From Candidatus Omnitrophota bacterium (GTDB lineage: Bacteria; Omnitrophota; Gorgyraeia; JABMRG01; JAFGKX01), in NCBI GenBank assembly GCA_043797125.1, contig JAZDPX010000013.1, forward strand, positions 9,180 through 73,179: DNA of 64,000 nt. Reading direction: 5' to 3'. Below the pieces are notes generated by a model. The model saw only the letters and a program-made list of their open reading frames with translations, was not told the origin of the DNA and made no database searches. Position numbers and translations under genes: made by a program. The stretch's first letter is position 1. Every line of letters starts with the position of its first letter. Positions 394-62,260 of this stretch are shown one piece after another.

Positions 394-427
394 CAATTTT
401 TAATTTTGCATTTTTAATTTTGAACTT

Positions 428-763
428 TTACTTCTCGCCTTCTTTATCCTCGGCGTACTTATCGACCACGCTCTTATCCCACAACTTGACACCTGCTTTA
501 TGCGCGCCGCGCGCTATCGCATGAGCCGCAACAGGGGATGTTAATATAATAAATATTATGCACAAAAACGCTTTTATGCCGGCAGCGGTAAACCCTACAA
601 TGATAAATGTTCCTAATAATATACCGCAGGTACCAAGAGTAACGCTCTTTGTGGAAGCCTGCAGGCGGTTATACACATCCGGAAGGCGCACAAGCCCCAG
701 GCATCCCAACAAATCAAATGCCAGCCCAATACTGATAAATATCAATCCAATAGTGCTATTCAT
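428..763 (-). CDS. Mrp/Mnh antiporter subunit G-like (MbhC-like)
   Basis: Matches the MrpG pattern (VRLPDVYNRLQASTK..TLG; TSPVAAHAIARGAH). Track ORF 428..793 starts at TTG. The ATG at 763 lies 5 nt after the MrpF stop and has a GGAAGAGGG SD, so it is the likelier start. Confidence 0.7.
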   Translation of the reverse strand: MNSTIGLIFISIGLAFDLLGCLGLVRLPDVYNRLQASTKSVTLGTCGILLGTFIIVGFTAAGIKAFLCIIFIILTSPVAAHAIARGAHKAGVKLWDKSVVDKYAEDKEGEK

Positions 764-1142: not shown

Positions 1143-1636
1143 TCGAAAATTTTCTCCAGCACCCTCTCAAAGCGTCCGGCTATAATCTCGGAAGCATTAT
1201 CTATATCTTTATCTTTTACATCAATCCAGTGTATATACAAAATGCCTTTGTCTTTGTCAATGTCCACAGATAATGTGCCTGGCGTAAGCGTTATAGAGTT
1301 GGCTAAAAATGTAAGGCCAGTGTCTGTTTTTAATTTTGTTTTTATTTTAATTATGCCGGGATTTATCGGCAGATTAGGATGCAGAACGCGGTATGCAACA
1401 TCAATGTTTGCCTTCAAGCATTCCCATAAAAACAAAGGGATATAATATACAATAAAATACCAATATCGCAAAGGGTGCTTAAGGGCATACGGCCTTCTGA
1501 CAAACAAATCTCCTGTAATAAACGCAACAAAAGAAGCGACAAAGACGCCAACGATAACATGTTGTGAGTCTACAGGCCAGCTCAAAAACAGCCATACCAA
1601 AAGCGCCACAAAAAACAGAACTATCCTACTCTTCAT
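1139..1636 (-). CDS. Mrp/Mnh antiporter subunit E-like (MbhA-like)
   Basis: MrpE-like pattern (LTPGTLSVDID...LYIHWIDV) and 4-nt overlaps with both neighbours. Confidence 0.65.
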   Translation of the reverse strand: MKSRIVLFFVALLVWLFLSWPVDSQHVIVGVFVASFVAFITGDLFVRRPYALKHPLRYWYFIVYYIPLFLWECLKANIDVAYRVLHPNLPINPGIIKIKTKLKTDTGLTFLANSITLTPGTLSVDIDKDKGILYIHWIDVKDKDIDNASEIIAGRFERVLEKIFE

Positions 1637-1639
1637 TTG

Positions 1640-3142
1640 CTATATCCCCTTTAAGACCGTAACAGCGTGCGCCACGCCTTTTAAAACTGCGTCGGATGCC
1701 TGCTTAATAAAAATTTCGTTTAAACCCGGCACCAACAAAATGCCTCCTGCTAAACAGATAAGCGCCAATGCGCACATCGACAATTTCATAAAAACAGGCA
1801 CTTCTTTCAGGCCGGAAAATTTTTCTTTTAAACGGCCGAAGAACGCGTATTTCATAACCTTCATAAATGAGGCAAGGGTCATTATGCTCGCTAAAACAGC
1901 CCAAAAAGCATATCCATACCTGCCTGCTTCTACCGCAGCAATTATGATAATGAGCTTGCTCCAAAAACCATTAAAAGGCGGAATGCCCGCAATTGACATC
2001 GATGCTATCAGGCTTGTCGTTGAGGTAAAAGGCATCTTTGCGCTTAGCCCTCCCATTTCCTTCAAATCTCTTGTCCCTGTGGAATATTCGATAGCGCCTG
2101 AATTTAGAAACAACAAAGATTTAAATATAGAGTGATTAAAAAGATGAAAAAGCCCGCCTAACATCCCAAGAGGCGTGCCTAAACCAATACCAAGAAAAAC
2201 ATATCCTATCTGACTTATAGAGTGATATGCCAACAGCCTTTTAAAGTCCCACTGGCCTATGGCTAAAAATACGCCTATGACCATAGAAAGGGCCCCGAGC
2301 GCCATAAATATTAAAGATATATCGGAACTTATTCCAAAAATATTGTAGAATATCCTGCATAAGGTATAGATCCCAAGGGATTTTATCAGGACGCCTGAAA
2401 GCATAGCTGAAATAGGCGCCGGAGCAGAAGGATGCGCGTCAGGCAGCCAAGCATGAAACGGCACAAGCGCTGCCTTAAGCCCGAAACCCATAATAAACAA
2501 AATGCTCGTCAATAAAATAATATTGGCAGTTCCCTTTTCAGACAGAATCCTGGCCATGTCAGCCATATTCAGCGTGGATGTATAGCTGTATAAAAATCCT
2601 ATGCCCAGAAGCAAGAAAAGCGAGCCGACGGTGCTCATAATCGCGTATTTAAAAGCTGCCTCGAGTTCGTGTTTTTCCGTGCCGAAGGCAACCAGGGCAT
2701 AACTTGCAACCGAGGCTATTTCCAGAAACACAAAAAGATTAAATATGTCGCCTGTTATTACCACACCGTTCATTCCGCCAAGCATTAACAGAAATAAGGT
2801 GTAAAACTGCCATTTTGAAGTAAACCTCTCCATATAATCTATCGAATAAATTACAATAATAAATGCCACCAAATTTATAGTAACAAGCATAAATGATGTC
2901 AAGCCATCGAGTGTCACCTCTATTCCGAAGGGAGGCTGCCAAGCGCCTACGCTGTAAGAAAAAGCGCCGCCGGTATTAACCATCGCCACGGTCAAAAAAG
3001 ACAAGCTGCATAAAATAAAAGTGGTCAAAATACCTATGATATCCGGCAGCCGCTTTATCTTTTTCCCGAAAATAGAAATCAAAAATGCCCCTGCTAAAGA
3101 TATGGCAACAAAAAACGGTATTATGCCCGCTAACCGAATCAT
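1640..3142 (-). CDS. MrpD/NuoM/NuoN-family proton-pumping antiporter subunit
   Basis: 500-aa polytopic membrane protein carrying the conserved NuoL/M/N core (WLPDAHPSAPAPISAMLSG, GYVFLGIG). Confidence 0.8.
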   Translation of the reverse strand: MIRLAGIIPFFVAISLAGAFLISIFGKKIKRLPDIIGILTTFILCSLSFLTVAMVNTGGAFSYSVGAWQPPFGIEVTLDGLTSFMLVTINLVAFIIVIYSIDYMERFTSKWQFYTLFLLMLGGMNGVVITGDIFNLFVFLEIASVASYALVAFGTEKHELEAAFKYAIMSTVGSLFLLLGIGFLYSYTSTLNMADMARILSEKGTANIILLTSILFIMGFGLKAALVPFHAWLPDAHPSAPAPISAMLSGVLIKSLGIYTLCRIFYNIFGISSDISLIFMALGALSMVIGVFLAIGQWDFKRLLAYHSISQIGYVFLGIGLGTPLGMLGGLFHLFNHSIFKSLLFLNSGAIEYSTGTRDLKEMGGLSAKMPFTSTTSLIASMSIAGIPPFNGFWSKLIIIIAAVEAGRYGYAFWAVLASIMTLASFMKVMKYAFFGRLKEKFSGLKEVPVFMKLSMCALALICLAGGILLVPGLNEIFIKQASDAVLKGVAHAVTVLKGI

Positions 3143-3477
3143 CCTCTTAACTCCCTTATTTTCGTAATATCGAATGTGCCGTATTTCTCGTATATCTTCA
3201 TTGCAATGGCTACAAGCAGCGCTGTGGTCGCAAGCCCGATTACAATTGAGGTAAGCACCAATGCCTGGGGCAGGGGGTCAACCATGTTTTTTATTTCAGC
3301 TTCAGGAGAAAAAATCGGAGCGCGCCCGCCTATACGATATCCCGTCAATACAAGAAATAAGTTAACGGCATATTCTACCACCATGGCGCCTATAATAATC
3401 TTGATGATATTGCGTTTTCTTAAAATGCAATAAAGACCGGCGCAAAAAAGGATAAGGCAGAGTAAATATACAATCAT
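3139..3477 (-). CDS. MrpC/NuoK-like small membrane subunit
   Basis: 112 aa with three TM segments, in the position and size expected for MrpC/NuoK. Confidence 0.6.
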   Translation of the reverse strand: MIVYLLCLILFCAGLYCILRKRNIIKIIIGAMVVEYAVNLFLVLTGYRIGGRAPIFSPEAEIKNMVDPLPQALVLTSIVIGLATTALLVAIAMKIYEKYGTFDITKIRELRG

Positions 3478-3935
3478 TTTTTCTTCTCCGAATCAGTCGT
3501 TAAAACTACCAGCGCGACAAATATCATAAAAAGCCCGGCGCCCACCTTAAGGCTTATTGCGATATTGCACAGAGGGATAATCCCGGAGCTGAATAATTTA
3601 AACGGCTCGCCTTTGGGTATAAAATTCAAGAAAAACCAGCCGCCCGTGAAGCCTAAAAGCGCTATCGCTAAAAACATTATTGCGCCAAGGCTTTCAAAAA
3701 ATGACGCAGCCGCCTTAGGCAATCTTTTAAAAGCCTCTTCTTTGCCATATGCAAGCATAAGATGTATAAAAGAAAGCGCTATGATAACGCCGCCCGCAAA
3801 ACCTCCGCCCGGCGAAAGATGCCCGTGGGCGAGTATGTAAATCCCGTATAAAAGTATCAGCCCTACGGTAAGACGCGTAATGGTCTTTACAATCAGCGTC
3901 ATCCCTTTTTCTTGCTTTTTATTCACGGCTGTCAA
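3474..3935 (-). CDS. MnhB-domain membrane subunit (Mbh small subunit)
   Basis: 153-aa hydrophobic protein that is translationally coupled within the Mrp module. Confidence 0.55.
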   Translation of the reverse strand: MTAVNKKQEKGMTLIVKTITRLTVGLILLYGIYILAHGHLSPGGGFAGGVIIALSFIHLMLAYGKEEAFKRLPKAAASFFESLGAIMFLAIALLGFTGGWFFLNFIPKGEPFKLFSSGIIPLCNIAISLKVGAGLFMIFVALVVLTTDSEKKK

Positions 3936-4477
3936 TCCTCTTCCTTTATCTTCTCTCCGGGCTTCTTCCTGCCAATGCGCCGCACAACCGCTAAAATGCC
4001 TATAACTGCCGTAAACAATATTGTGGCCTCTCCTAAAGTATCGTATGCCCTATAATCAAGAATAATCGCCGCTACAATATTGGCAGCGCCTGTCTTTGAC
4101 AGCCCTTCCTGTAAATAGGTATTTGAAACCTTCATCAGCGGATAGCCGAATTCCGGCAAATCTTTAAGCGCCACAGCCGCGATAATCAGAAATGCCGCGA
4201 TAAATACTAATGTAATGAGAGTATTCAAAAACCATCTTCCTGTTGCTGAAAACGGCAAATCCTTCTTTAATGTTGCCCTTATTAATATGATAAGGCACAA
4301 TATCTCGACAACAAGTTGCGTAATAGCCAAATCTGGCGCTTTTAGCACCAGAAAAACTATTGACAGCCCCAGCCCTACAGCGCCTACCGCTATCACAGAA
4401 GAAAGCAAATCCTTTATCTCAATAGCCGCTATTGCGCCGATAATCATAAATATCAACAATGTATAAAGCTCTATCAT
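3932..4477 (-). CDS. MnhB/MbhE-like membrane subunit
   Basis: 181-aa hydrophobic protein inside the operon with a 4-nt overlap to its neighbour. Confidence 0.55.
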   Translation of the reverse strand: MIELYTLLIFMIIGAIAAIEIKDLLSSVIAVGAVGLGLSIVFLVLKAPDLAITQLVVEILCLIILIRATLKKDLPFSATGRWFLNTLITLVFIAAFLIIAAVALKDLPEFGYPLMKVSNTYLQEGLSKTGAANIVAAIILDYRAYDTLGEATILFTAVIGILAVVRRIGRKKPGEKIKEED

Positions 4478-4481
4478 ATAC

Positions 4482-6137
4482 CTACCTTAATAAAAAATAA
4501 AAAAGAATCAGCATTCCGAAGAGACACCACGCCATATATGTAGGCAAAATGCCGTTGTGCAGGTAACGCAACACGCCGTTAAACGCGAAAGTTGCACTAG
4601 CGCCCATTTCATAAATGTCAAATACCTTTTTTGCGGCTAACTTGTATATGAACGACAAAATCCCTATATCCTGGATTGTCTTGTAAAAATCAACTCCTGA
4701 AACACGCATCTCGGGGTATTCTTTTAATAGCTCGCCGCCTACAAACGCTTCAGTTTCTCTTGTCTTTGTTATTGTCCCAAGAAGATAAATTATAAAGCCA
4801 ACCATAATCCCTGCTATTATCAACATGGTTGCGATACTAGCGTTCCACACGCCGGAAAATTCCACTATCTTGCCTACGCTTGGAAGGATAAAAAGCTTTA
4901 ACGGCACTCTATTGGCAAACACGCCGAATATCACGCATAGCGCCGCGAGTATAACCATAGGAATTAGCATTGTTATAGATGTCTCTGCACCTTTGCTTTG
5001 GGCTGTGGGCTGTGGGCTTTGGGCTTTCTGCCCTAGAAACACCGCGTGAACGAGTTTCATAAAACTTGCCAGAGTAAGCGCTGAACCAAACATGGCGCAA
5101 ACAAGCCATATTATCCAAAGCATGGAACCGTTTTTACCCAAATCAATTATACCCTGGTAAATCATCCATTTCGAAACAAATCCGTTAAAAGGCGGGACGC
5201 CTGATATTGCAAATGACGCTATTAAAAATGTGATAAAAGTAACGGGCATAATCTTGGCAAGCCCGCCGAGCTTTTCCATGTCTGTTGTGTTGGCCTTCTT
5301 CTCGACCGCTCCGCCCGATAAAAACAGGCAGGCCTTATATATTGCATGATTAAGCATGTGGAATATGCCGCCTGCAATACCTACAGGATTACCTGTCCCT
5401 ATTCCTAATACCATATAACCAACCTGGCTAACAGCGTGATATCCGAGCAACCGTTTTAAATCATGCTGCACAAGCGCCATCATAACCGCGGCTACTATCG
5501 TAAAACTTCCGACGGTCATTAAGAAAATATTCATGCCTGTATCCATCCTAAACATATAAAGTGAAATCCTTGCAAGAAAATATATGCCCAACAGCTTATC
5601 CAAAGATGCAGGTAAAAATGCGGTTACAGGCGTTGGCGCATCTTCCGCTGTATCCGGCACCCATGTATGAAATGGCATTGCCCCTGCTTTTGCAAACGCG
5701 CCTGCCGCAAGGCAAAGATATGCCCATACAGCTGCTTTTGTATTCAGCGTTATGCTCATTGCATCCATTTTAAGAGAACCTGTAATCTTCAATATAAGCG
5801 CAAGGCCTAAAAGCATTAACGCGTCTGTGCCGCCTATTATTATAAACGCCTTTTTTGCGGTGTATGTTGTGTTTTCTTTTTCGCCGAAATCTATCAGAAG
5901 ATATAAAAGCAGCCCTAAGAATCCCCAGAACACCATAAGTAAAAGCAGGTTATTGGAAAATACAACACCCAGCGACGCAATTAATGTAAGGAGTATATAA
6001 AAATAGTACTTAATCAGGCCTTTTGTCTTTTTCATAAAGCCTATCGAGTATAACGCAATCAGCAGGGTGAATACTATAACAAATATCCCCACAAAATTTG
6101 CCAGGTTATCGAATTTAAAAAGCTGCTCAGGTATCAT
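4482..6137 (-). CDS. MrpA/NuoL/MbhH-like antiporter subunit
   Basis: 551 aa with the NuoL-family core (HTWVPDTAEDAPTPVTAFL, GYMVLGIGTG). A heptamer repeat at 4995-5032 encodes a KAQSPQPTAQSKG insertion. Confidence 0.8.
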   Translation of the reverse strand: MIPEQLFKFDNLANFVGIFVIVFTLLIALYSIGFMKKTKGLIKYYFYILLTLIASLGVVFSNNLLLLMVFWGFLGLLLYLLIDFGEKENTTYTAKKAFIIIGGTDALMLLGLALILKITGSLKMDAMSITLNTKAAVWAYLCLAAGAFAKAGAMPFHTWVPDTAEDAPTPVTAFLPASLDKLLGIYFLARISLYMFRMDTGMNIFLMTVGSFTIVAAVMMALVQHDLKRLLGYHAVSQVGYMVLGIGTGNPVGIAGGIFHMLNHAIYKACLFLSGGAVEKKANTTDMEKLGGLAKIMPVTFITFLIASFAISGVPPFNGFVSKWMIYQGIIDLGKNGSMLWIIWLVCAMFGSALTLASFMKLVHAVFLGQKAQSPQPTAQSKGAETSITMLIPMVILAALCVIFGVFANRVPLKLFILPSVGKIVEFSGVWNASIATMLIIAGIMVGFIIYLLGTITKTRETEAFVGGELLKEYPEMRVSGVDFYKTIQDIGILSFIYKLAAKKVFDIYEMGASATFAFNGVLRYLHNGILPTYMAWCLFGMLILFYFLLR

Positions 6138-7315
6138 TTCTTTTTAGTTCTTAGTTTTTCAGTCTTTTCCTGCGAAAGCCTTACTAAATCTTCGCCGCTG
6201 TAAAGTTTTTTTCCTTCAACATTGCGCACTGCCATTCTCTCTGTGCAGCAATAGCACGGGTCTATGGCAGCCAGAATTATTGTCGCATCAGATATGGTCT
6301 CGCCTACAACAGTTGCCTTGTATGTCGGCAGGTTCATAAACGTTGGCGCCCTTACTTTGTGGCGCGCCGGGCGGTTTGTGCCGTCACTTTTTACATAATG
6401 AAATGTCTCGCCTCTCGGGGCTTCTATGTGGCCTATGCCTTCACCGACAGGAATATTTTTTAGTTTCAGGTCTATTTCGCCCTCGGGCAAATTCTGCAGG
6501 CACCATTTCAAAATTTTTATAGACTCAAATGTCTCCAATATCCTTACAACTGCCTTATCAAACACATCCCCGTTTTCAGTAACAATCATATCCCATTCTA
6601 ATCTGTCGTAAACCCCGTACGGGCAATTCTTCCTTAAATCCCTGGCAACTCCCGATGCCCTTGCCGTAGGCCCGAGCGCGCTGAAATTTATAGCCTCTTC
6701 TTTAGTAAGAATCCCTATGCCTTTTGTCCTTGCGTGTAAAACAGGGTCGTCAATTACCGCCTTCTTAAGCATGACTAACGTAGGAATAATAGAATCTATT
6801 TTTTTTAATACCCCGGGTATGTCTATTGCTTTTATATCGCGCCTTACGCCGCCGGGCTTAAACATGGCGTAGTTATTTCTGTTGCCCGATAAAACTTCCA
6901 TTACGTCCAGTATTTCTTCTCTTAATTTCCACGCCCACATATAAACTGTATTATATCCCAAAAAGTGCCCTGCAAGCCCTAACCATAAAAGATGCGAATG
7001 CACCCTCTCGCCTTCGGCGATTATTGTCCTTATGAATTTAGCGCGCTCCGGGACTTCAACCGGTATTATATCCTCAACCGCCTTTGTATAAGCGTAGGGA
7101 TGGCTTGTCGAGCATATACCGCAGATTCTCTCCACTGCGAATGTTGACTGGTCAAATGTCTTGGATTCGGAGAGTTTCTCAATGCCGCGATGGTTATACC
7201 CAATGCGCACGTCTATGGCCACAACCTTCTCGCCTTCAACGGTAAGAGTGAAAAACTCCGGCTCTTCCTGCAATGGGTGATATGGGCCTATTGGCACTAT
7301 TGTTCTACTCATCAT
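6134..7315 (-). CDS. group 4 [NiFe]-hydrogenase large subunit (NuoD/MbhL/EchE-like)
   Basis: Both Ni-Fe ligand motifs are present: N-terminal RICGICSTSH and C-terminal DPCYCCTER. Confidence 0.85.
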   Translation of the reverse strand: MMSRTIVPIGPYHPLQEEPEFFTLTVEGEKVVAIDVRIGYNHRGIEKLSESKTFDQSTFAVERICGICSTSHPYAYTKAVEDIIPVEVPERAKFIRTIIAEGERVHSHLLWLGLAGHFLGYNTVYMWAWKLREEILDVMEVLSGNRNNYAMFKPGGVRRDIKAIDIPGVLKKIDSIIPTLVMLKKAVIDDPVLHARTKGIGILTKEEAINFSALGPTARASGVARDLRKNCPYGVYDRLEWDMIVTENGDVFDKAVVRILETFESIKILKWCLQNLPEGEIDLKLKNIPVGEGIGHIEAPRGETFHYVKSDGTNRPARHKVRAPTFMNLPTYKATVVGETISDATIILAAIDPCYCCTERMAVRNVEGKKLYSGEDLVRLSQEKTEKLRTKKK

Positions 7316-7788
7316 ACTCCTCTGTCTCTAATCGCGGACTTATCCCATTCTTTATAATCGCGGCGCAGCGGGTAAACGCCCTGCGGCCATTCATCAGGCA
7401 AAAGCAGCCTTCGTAAGTCAGGGTGGCCTTTGAAGTTTATGCCTAAAAGCTCGTGTATTTCTCTTTCCACCCAGTTTGCCGCTTCAAAGCTCGGGGCAAG
7501 CGAATCTATTTCCAATGTTTTAGATTTATCCAGCTTTACTCTTAATGAAATCACAAGATTAATCTGCTCTATTGTAAAATGGTAAAGTATCTCCATATGA
7601 TACCGCACATCCACGCCTGACGCTATATTAAATCTTGCGCCCAAGTCTTTAAAAATATAGTTGGCTATTTTAATTATAGATTCGGGCTTAATCTCGATAT
7701 ACACCCTTTTCGGAGTCTTATCAAAGACATCGATGATATCGCTCTTGAATTTTTCTTTTATGCTTTTTAATATTTCTTCTCTGTTCAT
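7312..7788 (-). CDS. NuoC/MbhK-like hydrogenase subunit
   Basis: 158 aa, NuoC-like (30 kDa subunit) by position and size, with 4-nt overlaps to both neighbours. Confidence 0.65.
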   Translation of the reverse strand: MNREEILKSIKEKFKSDIIDVFDKTPKRVYIEIKPESIIKIANYIFKDLGARFNIASGVDVRYHMEILYHFTIEQINLVISLRVKLDKSKTLEIDSLAPSFEAANWVEREIHELLGINFKGHPDLRRLLLPDEWPQGVYPLRRDYKEWDKSAIRDRGV

Positions 7789-8210
7789 TTTTTTCCGCCC
7801 ACTTTTTCTATCAGCTTCACCACGCCCGCGATAATCGCCTCAGGCTTGGGCGGGCATCCGGGAATATACGCGTCAACAGGAATAATCTTATCCAGCGGCA
7901 ACGGACAATTATAGCTGTGTATAAACATGCCTCGCGACATGGAACATTCGCCTATCGCGACAACAAGACATGGTTTTGGCACCTGCTCGTATAATCTCTT
8001 CAATATCGTAACCGACTTCCTGTTGCATGAACCTGTAATTAAAAGCACATCCGCGTGTTTTATGCTGCCTGCTAAAAGTATTCCAAAGCGCTCTATATCA
8101 AACCTCGGAGTAAGACAGTCCAGTATTTCAATATCGCAGTTGTTACAACTGCCTGTTGAAAGATGAAACACCCACGGAGATTTCAGTAATGCCTTTAGTT
8201 TTACGCTCAT
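7785..8210 (-). CDS. NuoB-like [NiFe]-hydrogenase small subunit
   Basis: Proximal-cluster cysteines are present (GSCNNCD, AIGECS, IPGCPP). Confidence 0.8.
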   Translation of the reverse strand: MSVKLKALLKSPWVFHLSTGSCNNCDIEILDCLTPRFDIERFGILLAGSIKHADVLLITGSCNRKSVTILKRLYEQVPKPCLVVAIGECSMSRGMFIHSYNCPLPLDKIIPVDAYIPGCPPKPEAIIAGVVKLIEKVGGKK

Positions 8211-8211
8211 A

Positions 8212-9135
8212 TTATCTTCCTGCCAATGCCAATATTACCGCCAATATTGCTATAATCGTCATCGGGCCCCAGAAAAACCTTACTGCATGGTCAATCCTGA
8301 CCCTGGGGTTTGTATTCCTTATGACCGTAATCAATGCCACAACGCCTACATATTTAAGCAAGCCATATAAAAGATGTATGCCGTCTAATCTTATGCCTCC
8401 CATAAACAAAATCACCAGAAAGAAAGGCAGGGTGAATAAAAGCATATTTTTCATGAGCTTGTATACTGCCAAGCCGGCGCCTGAATATTCTATCAGCGGG
8501 CCGCATACAATCTCGGTCTCTGCTTCAGGCATATCAAAGGGCACAAGAGCCAGTTTTGCCTGCACGCACATAAGCGCTACTATAAATGCCAAAACCCCGG
8601 AGAAGCTTCCTATAATAACACCGCTTTGCGCCTGATACTGCAATATATCCCCAATCCTTATGGAAAACCCTGATTTTGCGATAACTGCCGCTATCGCAAG
8701 TATAAATGGCAGCTCATAACCTAAAACTAATTTCATCTCGCGCGACGCGCCCAAGCTTGCGTACGGGTTTGCAGAAGCAAAACCGCCCATGATTATAGAT
8801 ATAGAAGGAATTACTAATAAATATACTATTACTATCAGGTCGCCTAAAAATGTATTCGCGGTATTAACATTATTCACCCATAATAAAGTAGAAACCAGCA
8901 TAACGCTCATGATGCCGATAACAGGCGCTGCTAAAAATACTGTTTTAGATACGCCATGCGGAATGAGCGTCTCTTTGCCTAAAAGCTTTACAATATCTAT
9001 CAGCGGCTGCAATAAAGGCGGGCCTACGCGATATTGCACCCTAGCTGTAACTTTTCTATCAACCCAGCTTGCAAAAAGCCCGATAACAGCTGTCAGCAGA
9101 AATCCGTAAAATAAAAGATAAACAATATAAATCAT
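8212..9135 (-). CDS. NuoH/HycD/MbhM-like membrane subunit
   Basis: 307-aa polytopic membrane protein placed between the ferredoxin gene and the small subunit. Confidence 0.7.
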   Translation of the reverse strand: MIYIVYLLFYGFLLTAVIGLFASWVDRKVTARVQYRVGPPLLQPLIDIVKLLGKETLIPHGVSKTVFLAAPVIGIMSVMLVSTLLWVNNVNTANTFLGDLIVIVYLLVIPSISIIMGGFASANPYASLGASREMKLVLGYELPFILAIAAVIAKSGFSIRIGDILQYQAQSGVIIGSFSGVLAFIVALMCVQAKLALVPFDMPEAETEIVCGPLIEYSGAGLAVYKLMKNMLLFTLPFFLVILFMGGIRLDGIHLLYGLLKYVGVVALITVIRNTNPRVRIDHAVRFFWGPMTIIAILAVILALAGR

Positions 9136-9139
9136 ATAT

Positions 9140-18976: not shown

Positions 18977-19024
18977 ATTCTTTTTCCCCTGCCCACAGCT
19001 CAAGGCCCACAGCCCACAGCTCAA

Positions 19025-19798
19025 TTATCTTGCTCCTCTTCCCGCCGCTACAACAAAAACTGTCCTGAACAATATCCTCACATCCGTCATCAGGCACATT
19101 CTTTTTATATATAAAAGGTCATACTTTATTTTCTTCCTTACGTCCTGTATGGTCTCATCGTATTTGTGCCATACTTGCGCAAGACCGGTTATGCCCGGCT
19201 TTACCGCGTATCTTTTTCTGTAATCAGAAATTTCCTTGCTAAGCGTTTTTACAAAAACAGGGCGTTCGGGCCTTGGGCCTACAATACTCATCTCGCCGCT
19301 TAAAACATTAAAAAGCTGCGGTATCTCATCGATATGCGCTTTTCTTATTATCTTGCCGAATTTAATAAGGCGGGGGTCATTCTCTCTTGCCCAGATGGGG
19401 CCTGTTTCTTTTTCAGCGTCAAGTTTCATCGTGCGGAATTTGTATATATCAAAAAGCTTGCCACTTCTGCCCATTCTCTCTTGTTTATAAAAAACCGGAC
19501 CCGGCGAAACAATTTTAATCAGCATTGCCGTTAAAAGCATAATAGGCGCTGTAACAACTAAGCCTACAGATGCTACTGTTACATCAAAGCATCTTTTAAA
19601 TTCCTCGAAGCGCTTTCTGGCAAACCTGATCACCCAGCCAATAATGCCTGTTGATATCAAAGCAAGACTGCTTGGTTCAGGAGCTATTACGCGTCCGGTG
19701 CCGTTTTGGGCATAAACAAGCTCTATCATGTAGAACGCGAATAGGCCTAAAAATAAAAACAGAATTGCTAAATTAAGGTGGGCTTTAATTCTTTTCAT
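19025..19798 (-). CDS. polyprenyl-phosphate sugar phosphotransferase (bacterial sugar transferase, EpsB/WbaP C-domain type) with PEP-CTERM-like N-terminal anchor
   Basis: Catalytic-domain motifs (SPGPVFYKQERMGRSGKLFDIYKFRTM, IVGPRPERP). The N-terminal 63 aa are a signal-like helix followed by APEPSSLALISTGIIGWVIRFARKR. Confidence 0.8.
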   Translation of the reverse strand: MKRIKAHLNLAILFLFLGLFAFYMIELVYAQNGTGRVIAPEPSSLALISTGIIGWVIRFARKRFEEFKRCFDVTVASVGLVVTAPIMLLTAMLIKIVSPGPVFYKQERMGRSGKLFDIYKFRTMKLDAEKETGPIWARENDPRLIKFGKIIRKAHIDEIPQLFNVLSGEMSIVGPRPERPVFVKTLSKEISDYRKRYAVKPGITGLAQVWHKYDETIQDVRKKIKYDLLYIKRMCLMTDVRILFRTVFVVAAGRGAR

Positions 19799-21785: not shown

Positions 21786-21812
21786 CGCCATAAATGGCGC
21801 CCCTACTTCATA

Positions 21813-21838: not shown

Positions 21839-21850
21839 TTTAATTTTCCT

Positions 21851-28327: not shown

Positions 28328-31266
28328 AATAACTTTATATACAAATCCTGCGTCTTATTAATCATATTCCCCAATGAAAATATTGTCCTTACGCGCTCAT
28401 AAGCAGAATCTGCCACCACCTGGCACAATTCTGGAGATTTTATAAACTTCTCTATTGCTTTTGCCAGAGATACACTATCAGCGACAGGGACAAATGATTC
28501 TTCGGTGTCAATAAGTTCTCTATTCCCGCCTATATTAGTAACTATCACAGGCCTTTTCCTTGCCATAGCTTCCAAAATAACTATAGGAATACCCTCATAC
28601 AAAGAAGGCACTGCTATTATATTGCTAGCATCCATAATATCCGCAATATCTTTCCTAAATCCAGTAAATATAACTTTATCTTTTAGCTCTAGACCATCGA
28701 CCATTGACCATAGACTTTCTTTTATCGGCCCATCCCCGACTACTAGCAATTTAATATTATAATTTCCGTTTAAATGGCTAATAGCCTCGAACAAATACTT
28801 ATGCCCCTTCTGCTCAACTAATCTGCCTATAATCGCCAACACAATTTCATCATCCTTAATTCCCAACCCTCTTTTTACTGATGACTGATAACTGATGACT
28901 GATAACTTTTTTATTTCTATACCATTATATATAACGTCTATTTTATCTGCAGCAACCTTTGCGTTTTCTATATAGGCATTTTTAACTTCCTCACCTACTG
29001 CTATAATGCGGTTTGGTAATTTGGCTAAGAATTTTTCAAAGAATACTTCTAATTTATTATCCGCGAACTCTGTATTATGTATGGTTGTAATGCATTTTAT
29101 TCCCGCAATCTTAGCAGCTATAGTTCCCCACAAATTCGCTCCCCAAAGATGGGTATGCACAATATCAATATCGTAACTTTTCATAACCCTTACAAGCTTC
29201 CTGATTATAAATAAGTCGATCTTGCCCTTTTTGTGAAGTTCTAAAACCGGTATGCCTTCTTTTTCTAAGTTTTCCGCAAACACGCCTTTTTGATTAAGGC
29301 AGCATACAGCGACATTGAATCTGCTCTTATCCAGCCCTTTTGCCAGGTTGATTACAACTTGCTCCGCTCCTCCAAGCCCTAGGGACCAAATTACATACAT
29401 AACGTTTAATTTGCTGTGGGCTATGGGCTGTGAGCTGTGGGCTTTTTGTACCCAGCGATGCAATAAGTCGTACGAGCCAGCGAGCTTCTTCCTAAAATCA
29501 AACATACTATCAAACCCGCTGACTTCAGTCCTTTTCAGCTCGAACTGATCCTGCCCGGGTAAATTTGCTCCGGGCTTAATCGAACACGCTACTTTAAAAC
29601 CTGCTTTAGCTGTCAGGAATTTTACTTCCGCGTTAAAATCGCCTTTTGGATAACAGAAGAAGTCGCACTTTAATCCGTAGGACTCTATTATTTTTTTAGA
29701 ACCCTCAATTTCTAATTTAGCTTCTTCTATTGCCGCACCGGCTAACTTAACATGATTTAAAGTGTGCGCTCCAAACTCTATGGCATTTCGCGACATCTGT
29801 TGTATCTGGTCCCAGCTTAGAAATCCCTCTTTGCCCACTGATTCAGTAGCAACAAACACTGTTGCCGGCAAATTATATTCCTTTAATATCGGAAACGCAT
29901 TCGTATAATTATCTTCATACCCGTCATCAAACGTTATTACCACCTTCTTGGCCCACGAACTTACTTCTTTCAATCCTACAACCTCAAAATGCTCCTTTAA
30001 CCACTCCATCTGCTTCCTAAACTCACCCACCTTAACGCACAACCTGTCGTACGGACGATTATCGCTAACTCGATGATACATCAAAATTCTTACGCCGTCT
30101 TTCTGTCTAGACAAAACATAGGATAAATTGCTTGATATAGCTCTTATCTGTTTTTTCGGAGCTACAGCATTAGTTTCTTTAACAAAATATTGCATAATAT
30201 GCTCATTAGCATTAATCCAATATTTTTCATCAAATAAACTCTCTGCTCGCTTCCTTCCTGCTTCAGCCATAGAGTGCATCTTGGCCTTATCCTTTAGCAA
30301 CCCAATTATTGCTGATGTCAAAGCACCTGCATTGCCGGGCTTAATTAAAATACCGGTTACGCCATCTCTGACAACTTCCGGGCAACCTCCTATATTCGTA
30401 GCTATAACAGGCTTTCCCATTGCCATCGCTTCTCTTGCTGATTGAGGAAAAGACTCCCTTGTTGAGGACAATACAAATAAATCCATAATAGATAAAAATC
30501 TTGGAATGTCTTTTTGCAATCCAACAAATACAACCTTATCTTTTAATCCCAGACCATCGACCATAGACCATAGACTATCTTTCAATGGCCCATCGCCAAC
30601 AAAAATAAATCTTGCCCGTGGGAATTCCCTTAATACAACAGGCATTGCTTCTATAATATATTCCTGGCCCTTTTCCGGTGAAAGCCTTGCGACTGTTCCA
30701 ATTATAATATCATCTGGGGAAAACCCGAGTTCCCGCAAAAGCTCTTTATCTTTTTCTCGTGGAGAGAATCTATTCAAATCAATTCCGCTATGCACAACTA
30801 TTGTCTTATTTTGACTTAATCCCCACCTAATTAATCTGTTTCTTTCATATTCAGATTCGAATATCACCAATCTGCTGGCTAAATTTAAAATTATTCCGGA
30901 TATAAATAAGCTAAATTTTGAATGTATATTATGTATGGTGGTAATTACCGGCTTTTTTGCGCTATTAGCAAACAAAACCGCCAAAGTTGTGCGTATAGAT
31001 TGGGGCGCGATAATATCTATTTTTTCTTTTTCTATTATATTCTTAAGGGAGTTTGCTGATTCACGCAATTTTTTAAGCGAATTAAAATGAAAGTCTACGC
31101 TATAGTATTTCCCTCCTAAAGAAGTTATGTTTTGCGCAAATTTTCTATCCCTGCATGTCACAACAACATTGTGTCCGCGCTTTACAAGCTCCTTGGTAAA
31201 GGCAAAAATATCCTTCTGCGCCCCGCCAACTTCTAAGGAATGCGTTAAAAGATATAAGATATTCAT
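28282..31266 (-). CDS. tri-domain GT4 glycosyltransferase / NodB-type polysaccharide deacetylase / GT4 glycosyltransferase
   Basis: GT4 N-terminal domain, NodB motifs (ITFDDGYEDNYTNAFPILKEYNLPATVF; AHTLNH), then a second GT4 domain (EGIPIVILEAMA). Heptamer repeats are embedded at 28691, 28871, 29413 and 30551. The stop codon lies inside repeat A. Confidence 0.8.
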   Translation of the reverse strand: MNILYLLTHSLEVGGAQKDIFAFTKELVKRGHNVVVTCRDRKFAQNITSLGGKYYSVDFHFNSLKKLRESANSLKNIIEKEKIDIIAPQSIRTTLAVLFANSAKKPVITTIHNIHSKFSLFISGIILNLASRLVIFESEYERNRLIRWGLSQNKTIVVHSGIDLNRFSPREKDKELLRELGFSPDDIIIGTVARLSPEKGQEYIIEAMPVVLREFPRARFIFVGDGPLKDSLWSMVDGLGLKDKVVFVGLQKDIPRFLSIMDLFVLSSTRESFPQSAREAMAMGKPVIATNIGGCPEVVRDGVTGILIKPGNAGALTSAIIGLLKDKAKMHSMAEAGRKRAESLFDEKYWINANEHIMQYFVKETNAVAPKKQIRAISSNLSYVLSRQKDGVRILMYHRVSDNRPYDRLCVKVGEFRKQMEWLKEHFEVVGLKEVSSWAKKVVITFDDGYEDNYTNAFPILKEYNLPATVFVATESVGKEGFLSWDQIQQMSRNAIEFGAHTLNHVKLAGAAIEEAKLEIEGSKKIIESYGLKCDFFCYPKGDFNAEVKFLTAKAGFKVACSIKPGANLPGQDQFELKRTEVSGFDSMFDFRKKLAGSYDLLHRWVQKAHSSQPIAHSKLNVMYVIWSLGLGGAEQVVINLAKGLDKSRFNVAVCCLNQKGVFAENLEKEGIPVLELHKKGKIDLFIIRKLVRVMKSYDIDIVHTHLWGANLWGTIAAKIAGIKCITTIHNTEFADNKLEVFFEKFLAKLPNRIIAVGEEVKNAYIENAKVAADKIDVIYNGIEIKKLSVISYQSSVKRGLGIKDDEIVLAIIGRLVEQKGHKYLFEAISHLNGNYNIKLLVVGDGPIKESLWSMVDGLELKDKVIFTGFRKDIADIMDASNIIAVPSLYEGIPIVILEAMARKRPVIVTNIGGNRELIDTEESFVPVADSVSLAKAIEKFIKSPELCQVVADSAYERVRTIFSLGNMINKTQDLYIKLLDPRSPFSRGQVSRE

Positions 31267-31267
31267 A

Positions 31268-38323: not shown

Positions 38324-38334
38324 TTATAGTACCT

Positions 38335-46943: not shown

Positions 46944-47948
46944 TTAGGGTTTTTTGGAAAACCAATCGACGGTTTTACGGAGGCCGTCTTCGAAATTGAC
47001 CTGCGGTTTGAAGTTTAGGATTTTGCTGATTTTGGTGATGTCAGCACAGGTGCGCTTGACATCTCCGGCTCGCGGAGGGGTGTGGGTTGGCTTTATTTTT
47101 TTGCCCATTATTTTGTTGAGGGTGTCTACGAGTTCTAGGATACTGTGGTCATCGCCGGCGGCGACGTTGAAAACTTCGCAGAAGGTTTTGCAGGCTATGA
47201 GCTGTGGGCTATGAGCTGTGGGCTTTGAGCTTTGAGCTGGCACAGTTGCAGCTAGAATATTTGCGTTTACGACGTTGTCGATGTAGGTGAAGTCCCGGGA
47301 CTGAAGCCCATCGCCGTGAATTGGGGGATGCTCATTATTTAGCATGCAGTGTATAAATTTTGGGATTACTACAGCGTACTCGTCGTCTAAAGACTGTCTG
47401 GGCCCGAAGACATTGAAATATCTTAAGTTTACTGTTTCAAGGCCGTAGTTTTCGCTGAATACTCTGCTGTAATACTCTGCCGCGAGTTTTGTTAAAGCGT
47501 AAGGTGATATAAGAAGCGGCATATCTGTTTCTGATTGCGGAAACTTGCTGACATCGCCGTAAACTGAACTGGATGAAGCTATAACTACGCGCTTTACTTT
47601 TGCTTTCAGGGCCGCTTCGAGTATGTTAAGGGTGCCGTCTATGTTAACCGCGTTGTATTCGTGCGGCATTGTCATTGATTTCGGCACACTTCGCAGGGCT
47701 GCCTGGTGCAGGATGTAGTCGATGTTTTTGCAGGCGCGGGTGCAGGTGGCGGAGTCGCGGATGTCGCCTTTGATTAGTCTATAGTCAATGGTCGATGGTC
47801 GATGGCCTGAAACAAAAGATAGATTCTCTTCTTTACCGCTTGAGAAATTATCCAGCACGCGAACACTGTGGCCTTCTTTTAATAATCTTTCTGTTATATG
47901 GGAACCGATGAATCCAGCTCCGCCGGTCACAAGAAATTTCATATACAT
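46944..47948 (-). CDS. NAD-dependent sugar epimerase/dehydratase (extended SDR)
   Basis: Rossmann motif VTGGAGFIGSH and YALTKLAAE (YxxxK). It carries two heptamer-repeat-encoded insertions (HRPSTIDYR; PAQSSKPTAHSPQLIA). Confidence 0.85.
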   Translation of the reverse strand: MYMKFLVTGGAGFIGSHITERLLKEGHSVRVLDNFSSGKEENLSFVSGHRPSTIDYRLIKGDIRDSATCTRACKNIDYILHQAALRSVPKSMTMPHEYNAVNIDGTLNILEAALKAKVKRVVIASSSSVYGDVSKFPQSETDMPLLISPYALTKLAAEYYSRVFSENYGLETVNLRYFNVFGPRQSLDDEYAVVIPKFIHCMLNNEHPPIHGDGLQSRDFTYIDNVVNANILAATVPAQSSKPTAHSPQLIACKTFCEVFNVAAGDDHSILELVDTLNKIMGKKIKPTHTPPRAGDVKRTCADITKISKILNFKPQVNFEDGLRKTVDWFSKKP

Positions 47949-61537: not shown

Positions 61538-62260
61538 CTATTTTTTTATATCGCCCTGGATGCCTATTGTTATTTCCTTTATGGGAATATTTTTGCCGGA
61601 TATGCCTAATGCCTCTTTAGCGATATTAATCAGTCCGAAACAGCAAGGCACTTCCATGTGCACGCATGTTATGGATTTTATATTATTATGCTTGAAAATA
61701 TCAGCAACCTTTTCTTTGTAATACTCTGCGTCATCAAGCTTCGGGCAACCCACCAAAAGAACCTTGCCTTTTAACAGCTCCTCATGAAAATCAGCATAAG
61801 CAAAAGGCACGCAGTCTCCGACTATGAGCAAATCAGCATCTTGTAAATATGGCGCGTGCGCAGGCACAAGTTTAATCTGCACCGGCCATTGATTTAGCTG
61901 GCTTTGGGCTGCCTGCTTTGGGCTGCCTGCCCCGTACCCGAGCGAAGCGAGTGGTACGGGGTGGGCTTTCTTAAACTGCATTACTTTTGTACCCGGACAG
62001 CCACATTCAAGCGGCTTGGAAGCTGCCAGATGGTCTTTAACCTTCTTCTCGTCAAATGCCTTGGCTTCTCTTTCCTCTATAGTAATAGCGCCCTGCGGGC
62101 AATGCCCTAAACACGCGCCCAGACCATCGCAGAATACCTCGCTTACAAGCCGGGCCTTACCGTTAACAATCTTGAGCGCCCCTTCCTGGCAATTAGGGAC
62201 GCATAAGCCGCAGCCGTTACATTTTGACTCATCTATATTGATTATTTTTCTCTTTGCCAT
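61538..62260 (-). CDS. 2x[4Fe-4S] ferredoxin fused to MvhD/FlpD-like Cys domain (tentative)
   Basis: CNGCGLCVPNC and CDGLGACLGHCP, plus C-terminal cysteines (GDC...GCP...PCC). The linker GSPKQAAQSQ is encoded by a heptamer repeat at 61901-61935. Confidence 0.6.
   Translation of the reverse strand: MAKRKIINIDESKCNGCGLCVPNCQEGALKIVNGKARLVSEVFCDGLGACLGHCPQGAITIEEREAKAFDEKKVKDHLAASKPLECGCPGTKVMQFKKAHPVPLASLGYGAGSPKQAAQSQLNQWPVQIKLVPAHAPYLQDADLLIVGDCVPFAYADFHEELLKGKVLLVGCPKLDDAEYYKEKVADIFKHNNIKSITCVHMEVPCCFGLINIAKEALGISGKNIPIKEITIGIQGDIKK

What the first reader, a model, noticed from the sequence alone, without database searches (positions are those of the whole stretch)
4995..5032. Family of imperfect heptanucleotide tandem repeats (GCTNTGG type) inserted in-frame in unrelated genes
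Blocks of 4-6 units of 7 nt occur on the plus strand at 4995-5032 (MrpA-like), 29413-29447 (GT4-CE4-GT4), 47194-47240 (epimerase), 61901-61935 (ferredoxin) and 18992-19026 (intergenic). Each coding copy spans a multiple of 21 nt and encodes a Q/S/P/A/H-rich linker (KAQSPQPTAQSKG, AHSSQPIAHSKLN, PAQSSKPTAHSPQLIA, GSPKQAAQSQ). These segments are absent from the conserved core of these protein families, so they look like insertions. This points to a genome-specific mechanism that seeds and amplifies heptamer satellites while keeping the frame. The repeats could also allow slippage-driven variation.
Basis: seen in the sequence. Interest (0 to 1): 0.65.

Follow-up and report, generated by a model that had tools for sequence, protein, structure and literature searches.

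The report
Heptamer microsatellite cassettes inside Omnitrophota genes
The 7-base tandem repeats are real, but they are a lineage-wide microsatellite habit of Omnitrophota bacteria that fills tolerant loops of proteins, mostly without changing protein length, rather than fresh insertions peculiar to this genome.

Summary
The five blocks exist. Period 7 (with its multiple 14) is the only tandem period enriched in the window, and shuffles give none. The window is from a Candidatus Omnitrophota MAG.

Three stated details fail:
- Block lengths are 30-47 nt, not multiples of 21.
- The ferredoxin block is a 14-mer x2.
- The intergenic copy is inverted.

The window also holds other heptamer families: CATCGAC/GTCNATG x3, a TAACTGA-type array encoding LSVISYQ, and GATAAAG upstream of an Rrf2 gene.

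Only the epimerase copy is a clear net insertion against orthologues. The MbhH/MrpA-like loop and two GT4 helix segments align gap-free to orthologues, so there the array replaces native sequence of equal length.

Other Omnitrophota genomes carry different heptamer families at exactly the same protein sites, and each genome reuses its own family at many loci. Arrays cluster at 30-34 nt. Epimerase site 2 is quantised: a 7-aa baseline against +10-12 aa.

This is a heptanucleotide microsatellite (LSSR/STRR-like) system. Frame-keeping reflects selection. How the arrays are written is unresolved.

The parts
4995..5032 (-). Family A array. The coding strand reads AGCCCAA/AGCCCAC and encodes KAQSPQPTAQSK in a TM-TM loop of the MbhH/MrpA-like antiporter subunit (ORF 4482-6137). 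It replaces a loop of equal length and is not an insertion.
   Evidence: TRF; translation; loop alignment of 120 orthologues; best PDB match 6cfw_H (MbhH) with the loop present; arrays in the same loop in L208 and L209; the only canonical G4 motif in the window, 5000-5023 on the + strand.
29413..29447 (-). Family A array encoding KAHSSQPIAHSK in the CE4-to-GT4 interdomain linker of the 994-aa GT4-CE4-GT4 protein (ORF 28282-31266).
   Evidence: Orthologue linkers are 8-40 aa, and several are 14 aa like the window's.
47194..47240 (-). Family A array (AGCTCAA/AGCCCAC/AGCTCAT) encoding PAQSSKPTAHSPQLIA at hot spot 2 of the SDR epimerase (ORF 46944-47948). This is the one clear net insertion, +16 aa over the baseline.
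   Evidence: The AF2 model shows coil with pLDDT about 51 here.
61901..61935 (-). 14-mer x2.1 (coding strand AGCAGGCAGCCCAA) encoding GSPKQAAQSQ in a hypervariable linker of a 4Fe-4S protein (ORF 61538-62260). A weak member of family A.
   Evidence: The linker is variable in length in 60 homologues.
61930..61961 (-). GC-rich hairpin CCCCGTACC-N14-GGTACGGGG inside the same ORF (encodes HPVPLASLGYG), directly abutting the 14-mer array.
   Evidence: Unique in the window, none in shuffles. RNA fold -32.4 kcal/mol, z = -3.4.
18991..19026 (+). Family A array in inverted orientation. It fills the 48-nt spacer between the sugar-transferase stop (19025) and the likely ATG of the PEP-CTERM gene (about 18976). 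The G-rich strand is the mRNA sense strand.
   Evidence: A relaxed G4 motif lies at 18986-19015 on the minus strand.
28690..28715 (-). Family B array (coding strand GTCNATG) encoding SLWSMVDGL in the C-terminal GT4 domain. It aligns gap-free to orthologues, so it is an equal-length replacement inside the fold.
   Evidence: The Pfam Glycos_transf_1 match shows no insertion.
30551..30575 (-). Family B array (GTCNATG) encoding the same SLWSMVDGL at the homologous position of the N-terminal GT4 domain, again as an equal-length replacement.
   Evidence: The orthologue P0242/L124 has an AAGTCAC array (SHKSQVTSHK) over exactly the same 10 codons.
47775..47805 (-). Family B in the opposite orientation (coding strand CATCGAC) encoding HRPSTIDYRL at epimerase hot spot 1.
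   Evidence: The same unit sits at the same site in L207 and L210. PSTIDHR occurs about six times in P0009.
28877..28907 (-). TAACTGA/TGACTGA-type array (plus strand ACTGATG/ACTGATA) encoding KLSVISYQSS in the second GT4 domain, as an equal-length replacement.
   Evidence: LSVISYQ is the reverse-orientation peptide described for TAACTGA repeats in PMC4679880.
62676..62714 (-). Intergenic array, the most regular in the window (5.6 copies, 96%). The mRNA sense strand reads AAAGGTT/AAAGGAT x5 and ends 2 nt before the GTG start of the Rrf2 regulator. It supplies repeated Shine-Dalgarno-like AAGGA.
395..430 (.). A/T-rich period-7/14 array (AATTTTT x5.1) just downstream of the stop of ORF 428-793. 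Membership is uncertain because of low complexity.

Best explanation
These are heptanucleotide microsatellite arrays of the LSSR/STRR kind, and they are a lineage-wide feature of Omnitrophota rather than of this genome.

**What is shown**
- Each genome carries a few unit families. Here they are AGCCCAC-type, CATCGAC/GTCNATG-type, one TAACTGA-type and GATAAAG.
- The arrays are short and imperfect, about 4-5 units and modally 30-34 nt.
- They are scattered in both orientations, in short intergenic spacers and inside genes.

**Why the frame is kept**
Three 7-nt units make exactly 7 codons and use all three frames in turn. An array therefore encodes the same 7-aa repeat whatever its phase. Inside genes, arrays survive only where three conditions hold:
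1. The orientation has no stop codons.
2. The total length change is a multiple of 3.
3. The protein tolerates the peptide. Examples are a loop between TM helices, an interdomain linker, two surface loops of the epimerase and one poorly conserved helix of GT4 domains.

Frame-keeping is therefore a filter of purifying selection, not a property of the generator.

**The arrays are old residents of these sites.** Orthologues at 65-90% identity carry arrays at the same codons, either of the same family (CATCGAC at epimerase site 1) or of the family typical of their own genome.

**How the arrays are written (inferred, not shown)**
- Misalignment of the nascent strand in a 7-nt register during replication or repair. 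Realignment after a transient slip would template substitutions with no length change. Stable slips would change copy number, and inside genes only 21-nt steps survive.
- Templating or conversion between arrays of one family, which would keep a genome's arrays alike.

The coding copies are most likely neutral passengers. Intergenic copies may have been co-opted as RBS or structure elements.
For: **Period 7 is specific**
- It is the only enriched period in the window and in Omnitrophota loci L001, L124, L205-L210.
- Density is about 0.11 arrays/kb in the window against 0.021/kb in 771 kb of unrelated control loci, where period 7 is still the commonest class. This fits the Mrazek 2007 result as summarised in PMC4679880.

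**Source:** Omnitrophota MAG.

**Families recur within a genome**
- Window: A x5, B x3.
- L205: 7 of 7 arrays are ACTCAAT, in both orientations, coding and intergenic.
- L206: five arrays of CCCTATA/CCCTAAA.

**The same protein site hosts different families in different genomes**
- Epimerase sites 1 and 2.
- MbhH loop: AGCCCAM in the window, CCACAAG in L208, AAAATCA in L209.
- GT4 helix: GTCNATG in the window, AAGTCAC in L124, over the same 10 codons.

**Equal-length replacement:**

**Stability**
- L207 and L210 (79% nt identity) have an orthologous array of equal length.
- L001 and L002 are identical apart from one SNP.

**7-aa step expansion:** P0009.

**Permissive sites:** coil with low pLDDT in the epimerase model; hypervariable columns in all four alignments.
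Against: - Simple local slippage should amplify whatever 7-mer is present locally. It does not predict that one genome reuses the same unit at many unrelated loci.
- It does not predict the sharp length mode at 30-34 nt, seen in 21 of 36 arrays.
- It does not predict that GC-rich palindromic elements of the same size occupy the same sites interchangeably.
- Building a heptamer array unit by unit inside an essential gene would pass through frameshifted intermediates.
- No direct evidence of slippage is available, such as read-level length heterogeneity.
Confidence: 0.55

Rival explanations
1. The arrays are discrete cassettes of about 30-33 nt. They would be a miniature mobile element, or the product of templated patch repair from a small genome-specific template. 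They are installed or exchanged as whole blocks, either added to a site or overwriting an equal length. GC-rich palindromic elements would be a second cargo of the same process.
For: - Array length mode is 30-34 nt in both coding and intergenic DNA.
- Epimerase site 2 is bimodal. Twenty proteins have the 7-aa baseline and 26 have 17-19 aa, with longer classes near multiples.
- An exact 33-nt indel separates L207 and L210, which are 89% identical in protein core.
- Close relatives carry unrelated fillers of equal length: P0002/P0003 at 88% identity with 18 vs 19 aa, and P0027/P0033 at 85% with 19 vs 19 aa.
- The family is a property of the genome and the site is a property of the gene.
- Many MbhH orthologues have a +10-aa class.
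- ACTCAAT arrays in L205 mostly start and end in the same phase.
Against: - No target-site duplication or conserved terminal sequence is visible at array flanks.
- No candidate enzyme or template was identified.
- The clean 33-nt indel is a palindromic element, not a heptamer array.
- Array boundaries blend into native codons with partial units.
- GCTNTGG arrays in other phyla have a broad length distribution of 22-112 nt, which looks like slippage.
- Selection for loops of about 10-11 aa could give the same quantisation.
Confidence: 0.25
2. The coding arrays are contingency (phase-variation) loci of the neuO type. Slippage by one or two units would switch surface-polysaccharide genes off and on, and by three units would change linker length.
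For: - Several host genes belong to a large exopolysaccharide/PEP-CTERM cluster.
- neuO shows that a heptanucleotide array in a coding region can work this way, with translation only when the copy number is divisible by 3 (PMC13001214).
- P0009 carries an expansion in 7-aa steps.
- Some arrays in relatives are perfect: L001 10714-10744, L205 10702-10731, L124 8420-8461.
Against: - The window's coding arrays are short (3.6-6.4 units) and imperfect (73-92%), which disfavours frequent slippage.
- Arrays also sit in an energy-conserving hydrogenase subunit, a ferredoxin-like protein and a phosphoglucomutase, not only in surface genes.
- Arrays are mid-gene, and two lie within a folded helix.
- No copy-number difference is seen between two assemblies of one strain or between orthologues at 79% nt identity.
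Confidence: 0.1
3. The arrays are selected nucleic-acid signals, such as G-quadruplexes, protein- or ribosome-binding sites, or hairpin terminators. The coding copies would be the subset placed where proteins tolerate them.
For: - Array 62676-62714 ends 2 nt before a start codon and carries five AAAGG(A/T) units.
- Array 18991-19026 fills an operon spacer and gives a relaxed G4 motif on the sense strand.
- Array 5000-5023 is a canonical G3N4 G4 motif on the antisense strand.
- Inverted array pairs form hairpins between genes in L205 (7382-7465) and L206 (1800-1864).
- Published parallels exist: TAACTGA repeats upstream of start codons and GGGNATC repeats with a preference for four units.
Against: - Eight of 11 arrays in the window are inside genes, whereas the published signal-type repeats are under-represented in coding DNA.
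- Only 1-2 of the 5 family A arrays satisfy a G4 motif, and most families have no G tracts.
- Units differ completely between genomes at the same site, which is hard to reconcile with one conserved binding partner.
Confidence: 0.15

Closest known systems
Heptanucleotide long simple sequence repeats (LSSR) of prokaryotes (Mrazek, Guo & Shah 2007, as summarised in PMC4679880 and PMC4692102)
   Same: Tandem 7-nt units are the dominant repeat class and are far longer than chance allows. Their taxonomic distribution is patchy. A 7-nt polymerase-slippage register was proposed as the cause.
   Different: That survey reported that units in multiples of three were the ones most likely to be found in coding regions. 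Here most arrays are intragenic. They recur at the same codons in orthologues and often replace native sequence without any length change.
Cyanobacterial STRR short tandemly repeated repetitive sequences (Mazel et al. 1990; unit sequences recalled from memory, existence cited in PMC4692102)
   Same: A few sequence-specific heptamer families are dispersed in many copies through a genome, and their origin is unexplained.
   Different: The phylum differs (Omnitrophota) and so do the units. None of the arrays found here has CCCCAGT, TTGGTCA or CAACAGT.
TAACTGA direct repeats of Beggiatoaceae, Cyanobacteria and Bacteroidetes (MacGregor 2015, PMC4679880)
   Same: Array 28877-28907 alternates TAACTGA and TGACTGA. 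It sits in the stop-free 'reverse' orientation inside an ORF and encodes exactly the predicted LSVISYQ. The argument that orientation and position are filtered by coding potential is the same.
   Different: In BOGUAY most copies are intergenic, in forward orientation, just upstream of start codons, and the intragenic ones lie at protein termini. Here there is a single copy, mid-domain, as an equal-length replacement.
GGGNATC G-quadruplex-forming heptamer repeats of Xanthomonas and Nostoc (Rehm et al. 2015, PMC4692102)
   Same: Both are heptamer arrays with a marked preference for about four units. The G-rich strand avoids the mRNA sense strand inside ORFs. Intergenic copies lie between co-directional genes.
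   Different: Those repeats are under-represented in coding DNA, and the four-unit preference was attributed to G4 formation. Here non-G-rich families show the same length preference, so G4 cannot be the general cause.
neuO heptanucleotide contingency locus of E. coli K1 (PMC13001214)
   Same: A 7-nt array lies inside a coding region and is read through as a peptide repeat. In-frame states differ by three units.
   Different: neuO has 3-53 perfect units at the 5' end and switches at measurable rates. The arrays here have 4-6 imperfect units, lie mid-gene and show no observed length polymorphism.
Small selfish repeats tolerated in frame inside genes: Rickettsia palindromic elements (Ogata et al. 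2000) and Nostoc small dispersed repeats (Elhai et al. 2008). Both are cited from memory. The Elhai paper could not be read
   Same: Repeated DNA sits in frame at permissive, surface-exposed sites of conserved proteins. Presence or absence and content differ between orthologues.
   Different: RPEs are palindromic elements of about 100-150 nt and SDRs are unique sequences of 21-27 nt. Here the filler is a tandem heptamer array of about 31-33 nt, or a palindrome of about 33 nt in relatives.

Membership tests
Heptanucleotide LSSR (Mrazek 2007) | Head-to-tail tandem copies of a 5-11-nt unit | tested here: met
   TRF gives period 7 with 3.6-6.4 copies at 10 sites, plus one 14-mer.
Heptanucleotide LSSR (Mrazek 2007) | Arrays longer than expected from the composition of the genome | tested here: met
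   No arrays in 20 dinucleotide shuffles, against 6-7 observed at period 7.
Heptanucleotide LSSR (Mrazek 2007) | The heptanucleotide class dominates other unit sizes | tested here: met
   No arrays at periods 4-6, 8-13 or 15 in the window. The same holds in L001, L124 and L205-L210, apart from single arrays at period 8, 9 or 12.
Cyanobacterial STRR | Units STRR1-3 (CCCCAGT, TTGGTCA, CAACAGT; recalled from memory) | tested here: not met
   None of the TRF consensus units or their rotations or complements match.
Cyanobacterial STRR | Host is a (heterocystous) cyanobacterium | tested here: not met
   The nearest proteins are annotated Candidatus Omnitrophota, with 100% matches on a 142,993-bp MAG contig.
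Cyanobacterial STRR | A few heptamer families dispersed in many copies per genome | tested here: met
   Family A x5 and family B x3 in 64 kb. L205 has 7 of 7 arrays of one family.
TAACTGA direct repeats (MacGregor 2015) | Tandem unit TAACTGA | tested here: inconclusive
   Array 28877-28907 is (TGACTGA TAACTGA)x2.2, so every second unit is exact. It is the only such array in the window.
TAACTGA direct repeats (MacGregor 2015) | Intragenic copies only in reverse orientation, encoding LSVISYQ | tested here: met
   The translation is KKLSVISYQSSV, which matches section 9 of PMC4679880.
TAACTGA direct repeats (MacGregor 2015) | Mostly intergenic, in forward orientation, within a few nt upstream of start codons | tested here: not met
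   The single copy here is mid-ORF. An array of a different unit (62676-62714) has that position.
neuO-type contingency locus | Long perfect array whose unit number sets the reading frame (ON only when divisible by 3) | tested here: not met
   The arrays have 3.6-6.4 imperfect units and non-integer unit numbers. Their spans are not multiples of 21.
neuO-type contingency locus | Copy-number polymorphism within a population or between strains | not testable with these tools
   No reads are available. The only same-strain pair (L001/L002) and the closest orthologue pair (L207/L210) show no length difference.
G4-forming heptamer repeats (Rehm 2015) | Four or more G3 tracts with short loops | tested here: inconclusive
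   Met by 5000-5023. Met only with an 11-nt loop by 18986-19015. Not met by the other three family A arrays or by other families.
G4-forming heptamer repeats (Rehm 2015) | Under-represented in coding regions | tested here: not met
   Eight of 11 arrays in the window lie inside ORFs.
In-frame selfish repeats (RPE / SDR type) | Repeated element inserted in frame at a permissive site of a conserved protein, absent from some orthologues | tested here: met
   Epimerase site 2 has a 7-aa baseline in 20 orthologues and +10-12 aa in 26. The site is coil with low pLDDT.
In-frame selfish repeats (RPE / SDR type) | Element has a defined non-tandem sequence with conserved ends (palindromic for RPE) | tested here: not met
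   The window's elements are tandem heptamers without conserved flanks.

The most novel reading that the evidence does not exclude
Omnitrophota may have an active, family-specific process that writes cassettes of about 30-33 nt into permissive sites. The cargo would be either 4-5 heptamer units or a GC-rich palindrome. The process could overwrite an equal length of native coding sequence inside folded domains, and cassettes of different families would replace one another at the same codons as lineages diverge. That would be a new kind of miniature mobile element or templated patch-repair system. It would also give a comparative handle on the origin of STRR-type heptamer repeats, which has been unexplained since 1990.
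Probability: 0.2. Interest if true: 0.8.

Novelty: new variant of a known kind. Interest (0 to 1): 0.55.

Why it matters
Heptamer repeat families have been known for decades in cyanobacteria, Xanthomonas, Burkholderia and Beggiatoaceae. How they arise and spread is still unexplained, and they were described as mainly intergenic.

In Omnitrophota they sit inside conserved enzymes, so orthologue alignments show precisely what each array replaced. The pattern seen here is:
- the family follows the genome and the site follows the gene;
- replacement is often of equal length;
- array size is quantised at about 31-33 nt, a size shared with palindromic elements.

This pattern constrains the mechanism much more tightly than intergenic data can.

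There are practical consequences too. These segments inflate apparent protein divergence. They create spurious 'low-complexity linkers' in annotations and structure predictions of MAG proteins. They could also mislead alignment-based phylogenies of this phylum.

Tried and rejected
- **Chance or low complexity.** Rejected by shuffles and by the exclusivity of period 7.
- **Assembly artefact.** Rejected. The arrays are in frame inside intact ORFs. L001 and L002, two independent assemblies, are identical there.
- **Cyanobacterial origin (my first guess from STRR).** Rejected by protein homology to Omnitrophota.
- **'Multiple of 21 nt' rule.** Rejected.
- **G4 as a general explanation.** Rejected. 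Only 1-2 arrays qualify.
- **Looking up the window's own contig by exact protein.** Failed.
- **DNA for P0009, the six-fold PSTIDHR expansion.** Not available.
- **Metagenome scan with the epimerase alignment.** I used these loci as a control set instead.
- **Coding-orientation calls in those mostly high-GC loci.** They rest on stop-free frames only, so I did not use them.
- **Protein-level 7-aa periodicity with a strict score.** Too insensitive for arrays of two 7-aa units or fewer, so I replaced it with run counts.
- **Elhai 2008 SDR paper.** Could not be read.
- **Literature search for Omnitroph* together with heptamer.** No paper found.
Full report
**1. Observation**

All five reported blocks are present. 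TRF gives the following:
- 4995-5027: period 7, 4.7 copies, 92% matches.
- 29413-29443: period 7, 4.4 copies, 83%.
- 47194-47238: period 7, 6.4 copies, 78%.
- 18991-19020: period 7, 4.3 copies, 73%.
- 61901-61930: period 14 only, 2.1 copies, 100%.

With one scoring scheme applied to periods 4-15, the window has 6 arrays at period 7 and 5 at period 14. It has none at any other period, and 20 dinucleotide shuffles give none at all. The quoted peptides are correct.

Three details are wrong:
- The spans are 30-47 nt, not multiples of 21.
- The ferredoxin block is a 14-mer.
- The intergenic block is inverted relative to the others.

- GTCNATG at 28690-28715 and 30551-30575.
- Its complement CATCGAC at 47775-47805.
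- A TAACTGA/TGACTGA array at 28877-28907.
- GATAAAG/GTTAAAG at 62676-62714.
- An A/T-rich array at 395-430.

Eight of these 11 arrays lie inside ORFs. Nearly all ORFs are on the minus strand.

**2. Source and hosts**

The host proteins have 100% matches annotated as Candidatus Omnitrophota on one 142,993-bp MAG contig. Their nearest relatives are also Omnitrophota. The hosts are:
- An antiporter-like subunit whose best solved relative is MbhH of the Pyrococcus membrane-bound hydrogenase, 6cfw_H. It sits in an Mbh/Mrp-type cluster, judged by synteny with L209.
- A 994-aa GT4-CE4-GT4 protein.
- An SDR sugar epimerase.
- A 4Fe-4S protein.

**3. Insertion or not**

*Epimerase.* Orthologues vary at two hot spots, one after NLSF and one after ILAAT. 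At site 2 the length is bimodal. Twenty proteins have a 7-aa baseline (TPGIKCE) and 26 have 17-19 aa, with longer classes beyond. The window's 23 aa is a true net insertion. In the AlphaFold model both sites are coil with pLDDT 51-65.

*MbhH-like loop.* The segment between FLGQ and ET has the same length in almost all 120 orthologues. It also exists, 3-5 residues shorter, in MbhH and Bacillus MrpA. The window's array therefore replaces a loop rather than adding one.

*GT4-CE4-GT4.*
- The family A array lies in a linker that is 8-40 aa long in orthologues, so the window's 14 aa is ordinary.
- The two SLWSMVDGL arrays and the LSVISYQ array align without gaps to orthologues inside the GT4 fold.
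- The Pfam match shows no insertion there.

*Ferredoxin-like protein.* The array lies in a linker whose length varies in every homologue.

In summary, there is one clear insertion, at least three equal-length replacements, and two sites that cannot be decided.

**4. The same sites in other genomes**

Runs of at least 4 identities at an offset of 7 aa are commoner than at any other offset among the epimerase orthologues: 10, against 0-5. Almost all fall at the two hot spots.

DNA from relatives confirms heptamer arrays of other units at the same codons:

| Protein site | Unit (locus) |
|---|---|
| Epimerase site 2 | AGTCCAC (L001), ACTCAAT (L205), CCCTAAA (L206) |
| Epimerase site 1 | CATCGAC (L207, L210, as in the window), CCCTATA (L206), ACTCAAT (L205) |
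| MbhH loop | CCACAAG (L208), AAAATCA x4.9 (L209) |
| GT4 helix | AAGTCAC over the same 10 codons (L124), and again at the homologous helix of a second GT4 gene |

Each genome reuses its own family elsewhere:
- All 7 arrays in 21 kb of L205 are ACTCAAT, in both orientations, coding and intergenic.
- L206 has five CCCTATA/CCCTAAA arrays.

So the family follows the genome and the site follows the gene.

In some relatives the same sites are filled instead by GC-rich palindromic elements of the same size. Close relatives can differ by unrelated fillers of equal length, or by presence against absence. P0119 and P0093 are 89% identical in core sequence, and their DNA differs by exactly 33 nt at site 2.

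**5. Length and stability**

Of 36 arrays in the Omnitrophota loci, 21 are 30-34 nt long, in both coding and intergenic DNA. Orthologous CATCGAC arrays in L207 and L210 (79% nt identity) have the same length. Two assemblies of one strain are identical at their arrays. One orthologue, P0009, has about six PSTIDHR units, an expansion in 21-nt steps.

**6. How general**

- GCTNTGG x3 arrays occur in more than 120 contigs from many phyla. Those loci carry many other period-7 arrays as well.
- In 771 kb of unrelated control loci, period 7 is still the commonest class but about five-fold sparser, and it is concentrated in a few contigs.

This matches published work:
- Heptanucleotides are the most abundant long SSR class in many prokaryotes, with polymerase slippage proposed as the cause (Mrazek 2007).
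- TAACTGA repeats have intragenic copies only in the LSVISYQ orientation.
- GGGNATC repeats show a preference for four units.
- neuO is a coding heptanucleotide phase switch.

No paper linking Omnitrophota with heptamers was found.

**7. Mechanism**

*Shown:*
- A 7-nt register.
- Genome-specific families.
- Permissive sites.
- Stop-free orientation.
- Frequent equal-length replacement.
- A size mode of about 31-33 nt.

*Follows from arithmetic:* three units equal seven codons, so an array encodes the same peptide repeat in any phase. Frame-keeping needs only selection on total length.

*Inferred (best explanation, 0.55):* misalignment in a 7-nt register during replication or repair.
- Transient misalignment would give templated substitutions without length change.
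- Stable slips would give copy-number change.
- Exchange between arrays of one family would keep a genome's arrays alike.
- Selection would then filter the outcomes.

*Main rival (0.25):* discrete cassettes of about 33 nt written or exchanged by an unidentified element. This explains the quantisation, the family-genome link and the interchange with palindromes better. It lacks ends, target duplications or an enzyme.

*Other rivals:*
- Phase variation (0.1) is disfavoured by short imperfect arrays, housekeeping hosts and the absence of observed polymorphism.
- A signal role (0.15) is plausible only for intergenic copies. Array 62676-62714 supplies repeated AAGGA just before a start codon. Array 18991-19026 fills an operon spacer. 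Inverted array pairs form hairpins in L205 and L206.

**8. Verdict**

The arrays are a new, mainly intragenic variant of the known heptanucleotide LSSR/STRR phenomenon, in a phylum where it has not been described. The comparative pattern found here may make the origin of such repeats testable.

Noticed in passing
window 21812-21839, 25990-26023, 28246-28273, 49106-49135, 50063-50098, 51453-51478, 54047-54074, 60588-60613; variant at 52661-52700, 57859-57886, 61140-61165: A family of perfect zero-loop palindromes, GTAGCGGAGCCTT|AAGGCTCCGCTAC, with a variant GTAGCGCAGGCTTAAGCCTGCGCTAC. They sit at 11 or more intergenic sites, typically just after ORF stops. They look like REP-like or terminator-like dispersed elements and are unrelated to the heptamers.
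   Followed up: no
window 61930-61961: A unique GC-rich hairpin (9-bp stem, 14-nt loop) lies inside the ferredoxin-like ORF and abuts the 14-mer array. It encodes HPVPLASLGYG. The RNA fold has z = -3.4.
   Followed up: partly
L003 10001-11047; L207 site 2; proteins P0029, P0033, P0040, P0044, P0050, P0058: GC-rich palindromic elements are translated in frame at the same two epimerase hot spots. Examples are CATTGCGAGGAGC...GCAATC giving VIARSEATKQS or HCEEPRRGDEAIS, and GGGACTGTCCC giving GLSPKGTVP. They come in units of about 33 nt, and L207 and L210 differ by an exact 33-nt indel.
   Followed up: partly
L205 7382-7465; L206 1800-1864: Intergenic heptamer arrays occur as inverted pairs that would form long hairpins. 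They lie between a stop codon and the next gene's RBS or start.
   Followed up: no
L206 1800-1864, 11099-11128: One Omnitrophota family is (CCCTAAA)n/(TTTAGGG)n, which is identical to the plant-type telomere repeat. This is probably coincidence.
   Followed up: no
L001 about 10130-10165 (epimerase site 1): At a site that holds heptamers in other genomes, this genome has a period-8 array, GGTGACCT x3.8 (30 nt), encoding GDLVTWCPGD. So the array size is conserved while the period is not.
   Followed up: no
window 30000-46000: G+C drops to 0.33-0.37, against 0.42-0.45 elsewhere, across the glycosyltransferase/Wzy-type part of the polysaccharide cluster. This may be a horizontally acquired or fast-evolving surface-polysaccharide island.
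   Followed up: no
window 428-12110: A run of co-directional ORFs is syntenic with an Mbh/Mrp-type group 4 [NiFe]-hydrogenase cluster seen in L209. The components there include MbhD/E, MnhB, NiFe large subunit, Complex1_30kDa and HycI.
   Followed up: partly
L149, L168, L185 (metagenome control loci): A few unrelated contigs with GC of 0.69, 0.35 and 0.51 each carry 3-4 heptamer arrays, while most control loci have none. So heptamer-rich lineages are scattered outside Omnitrophota.
   Followed up: no
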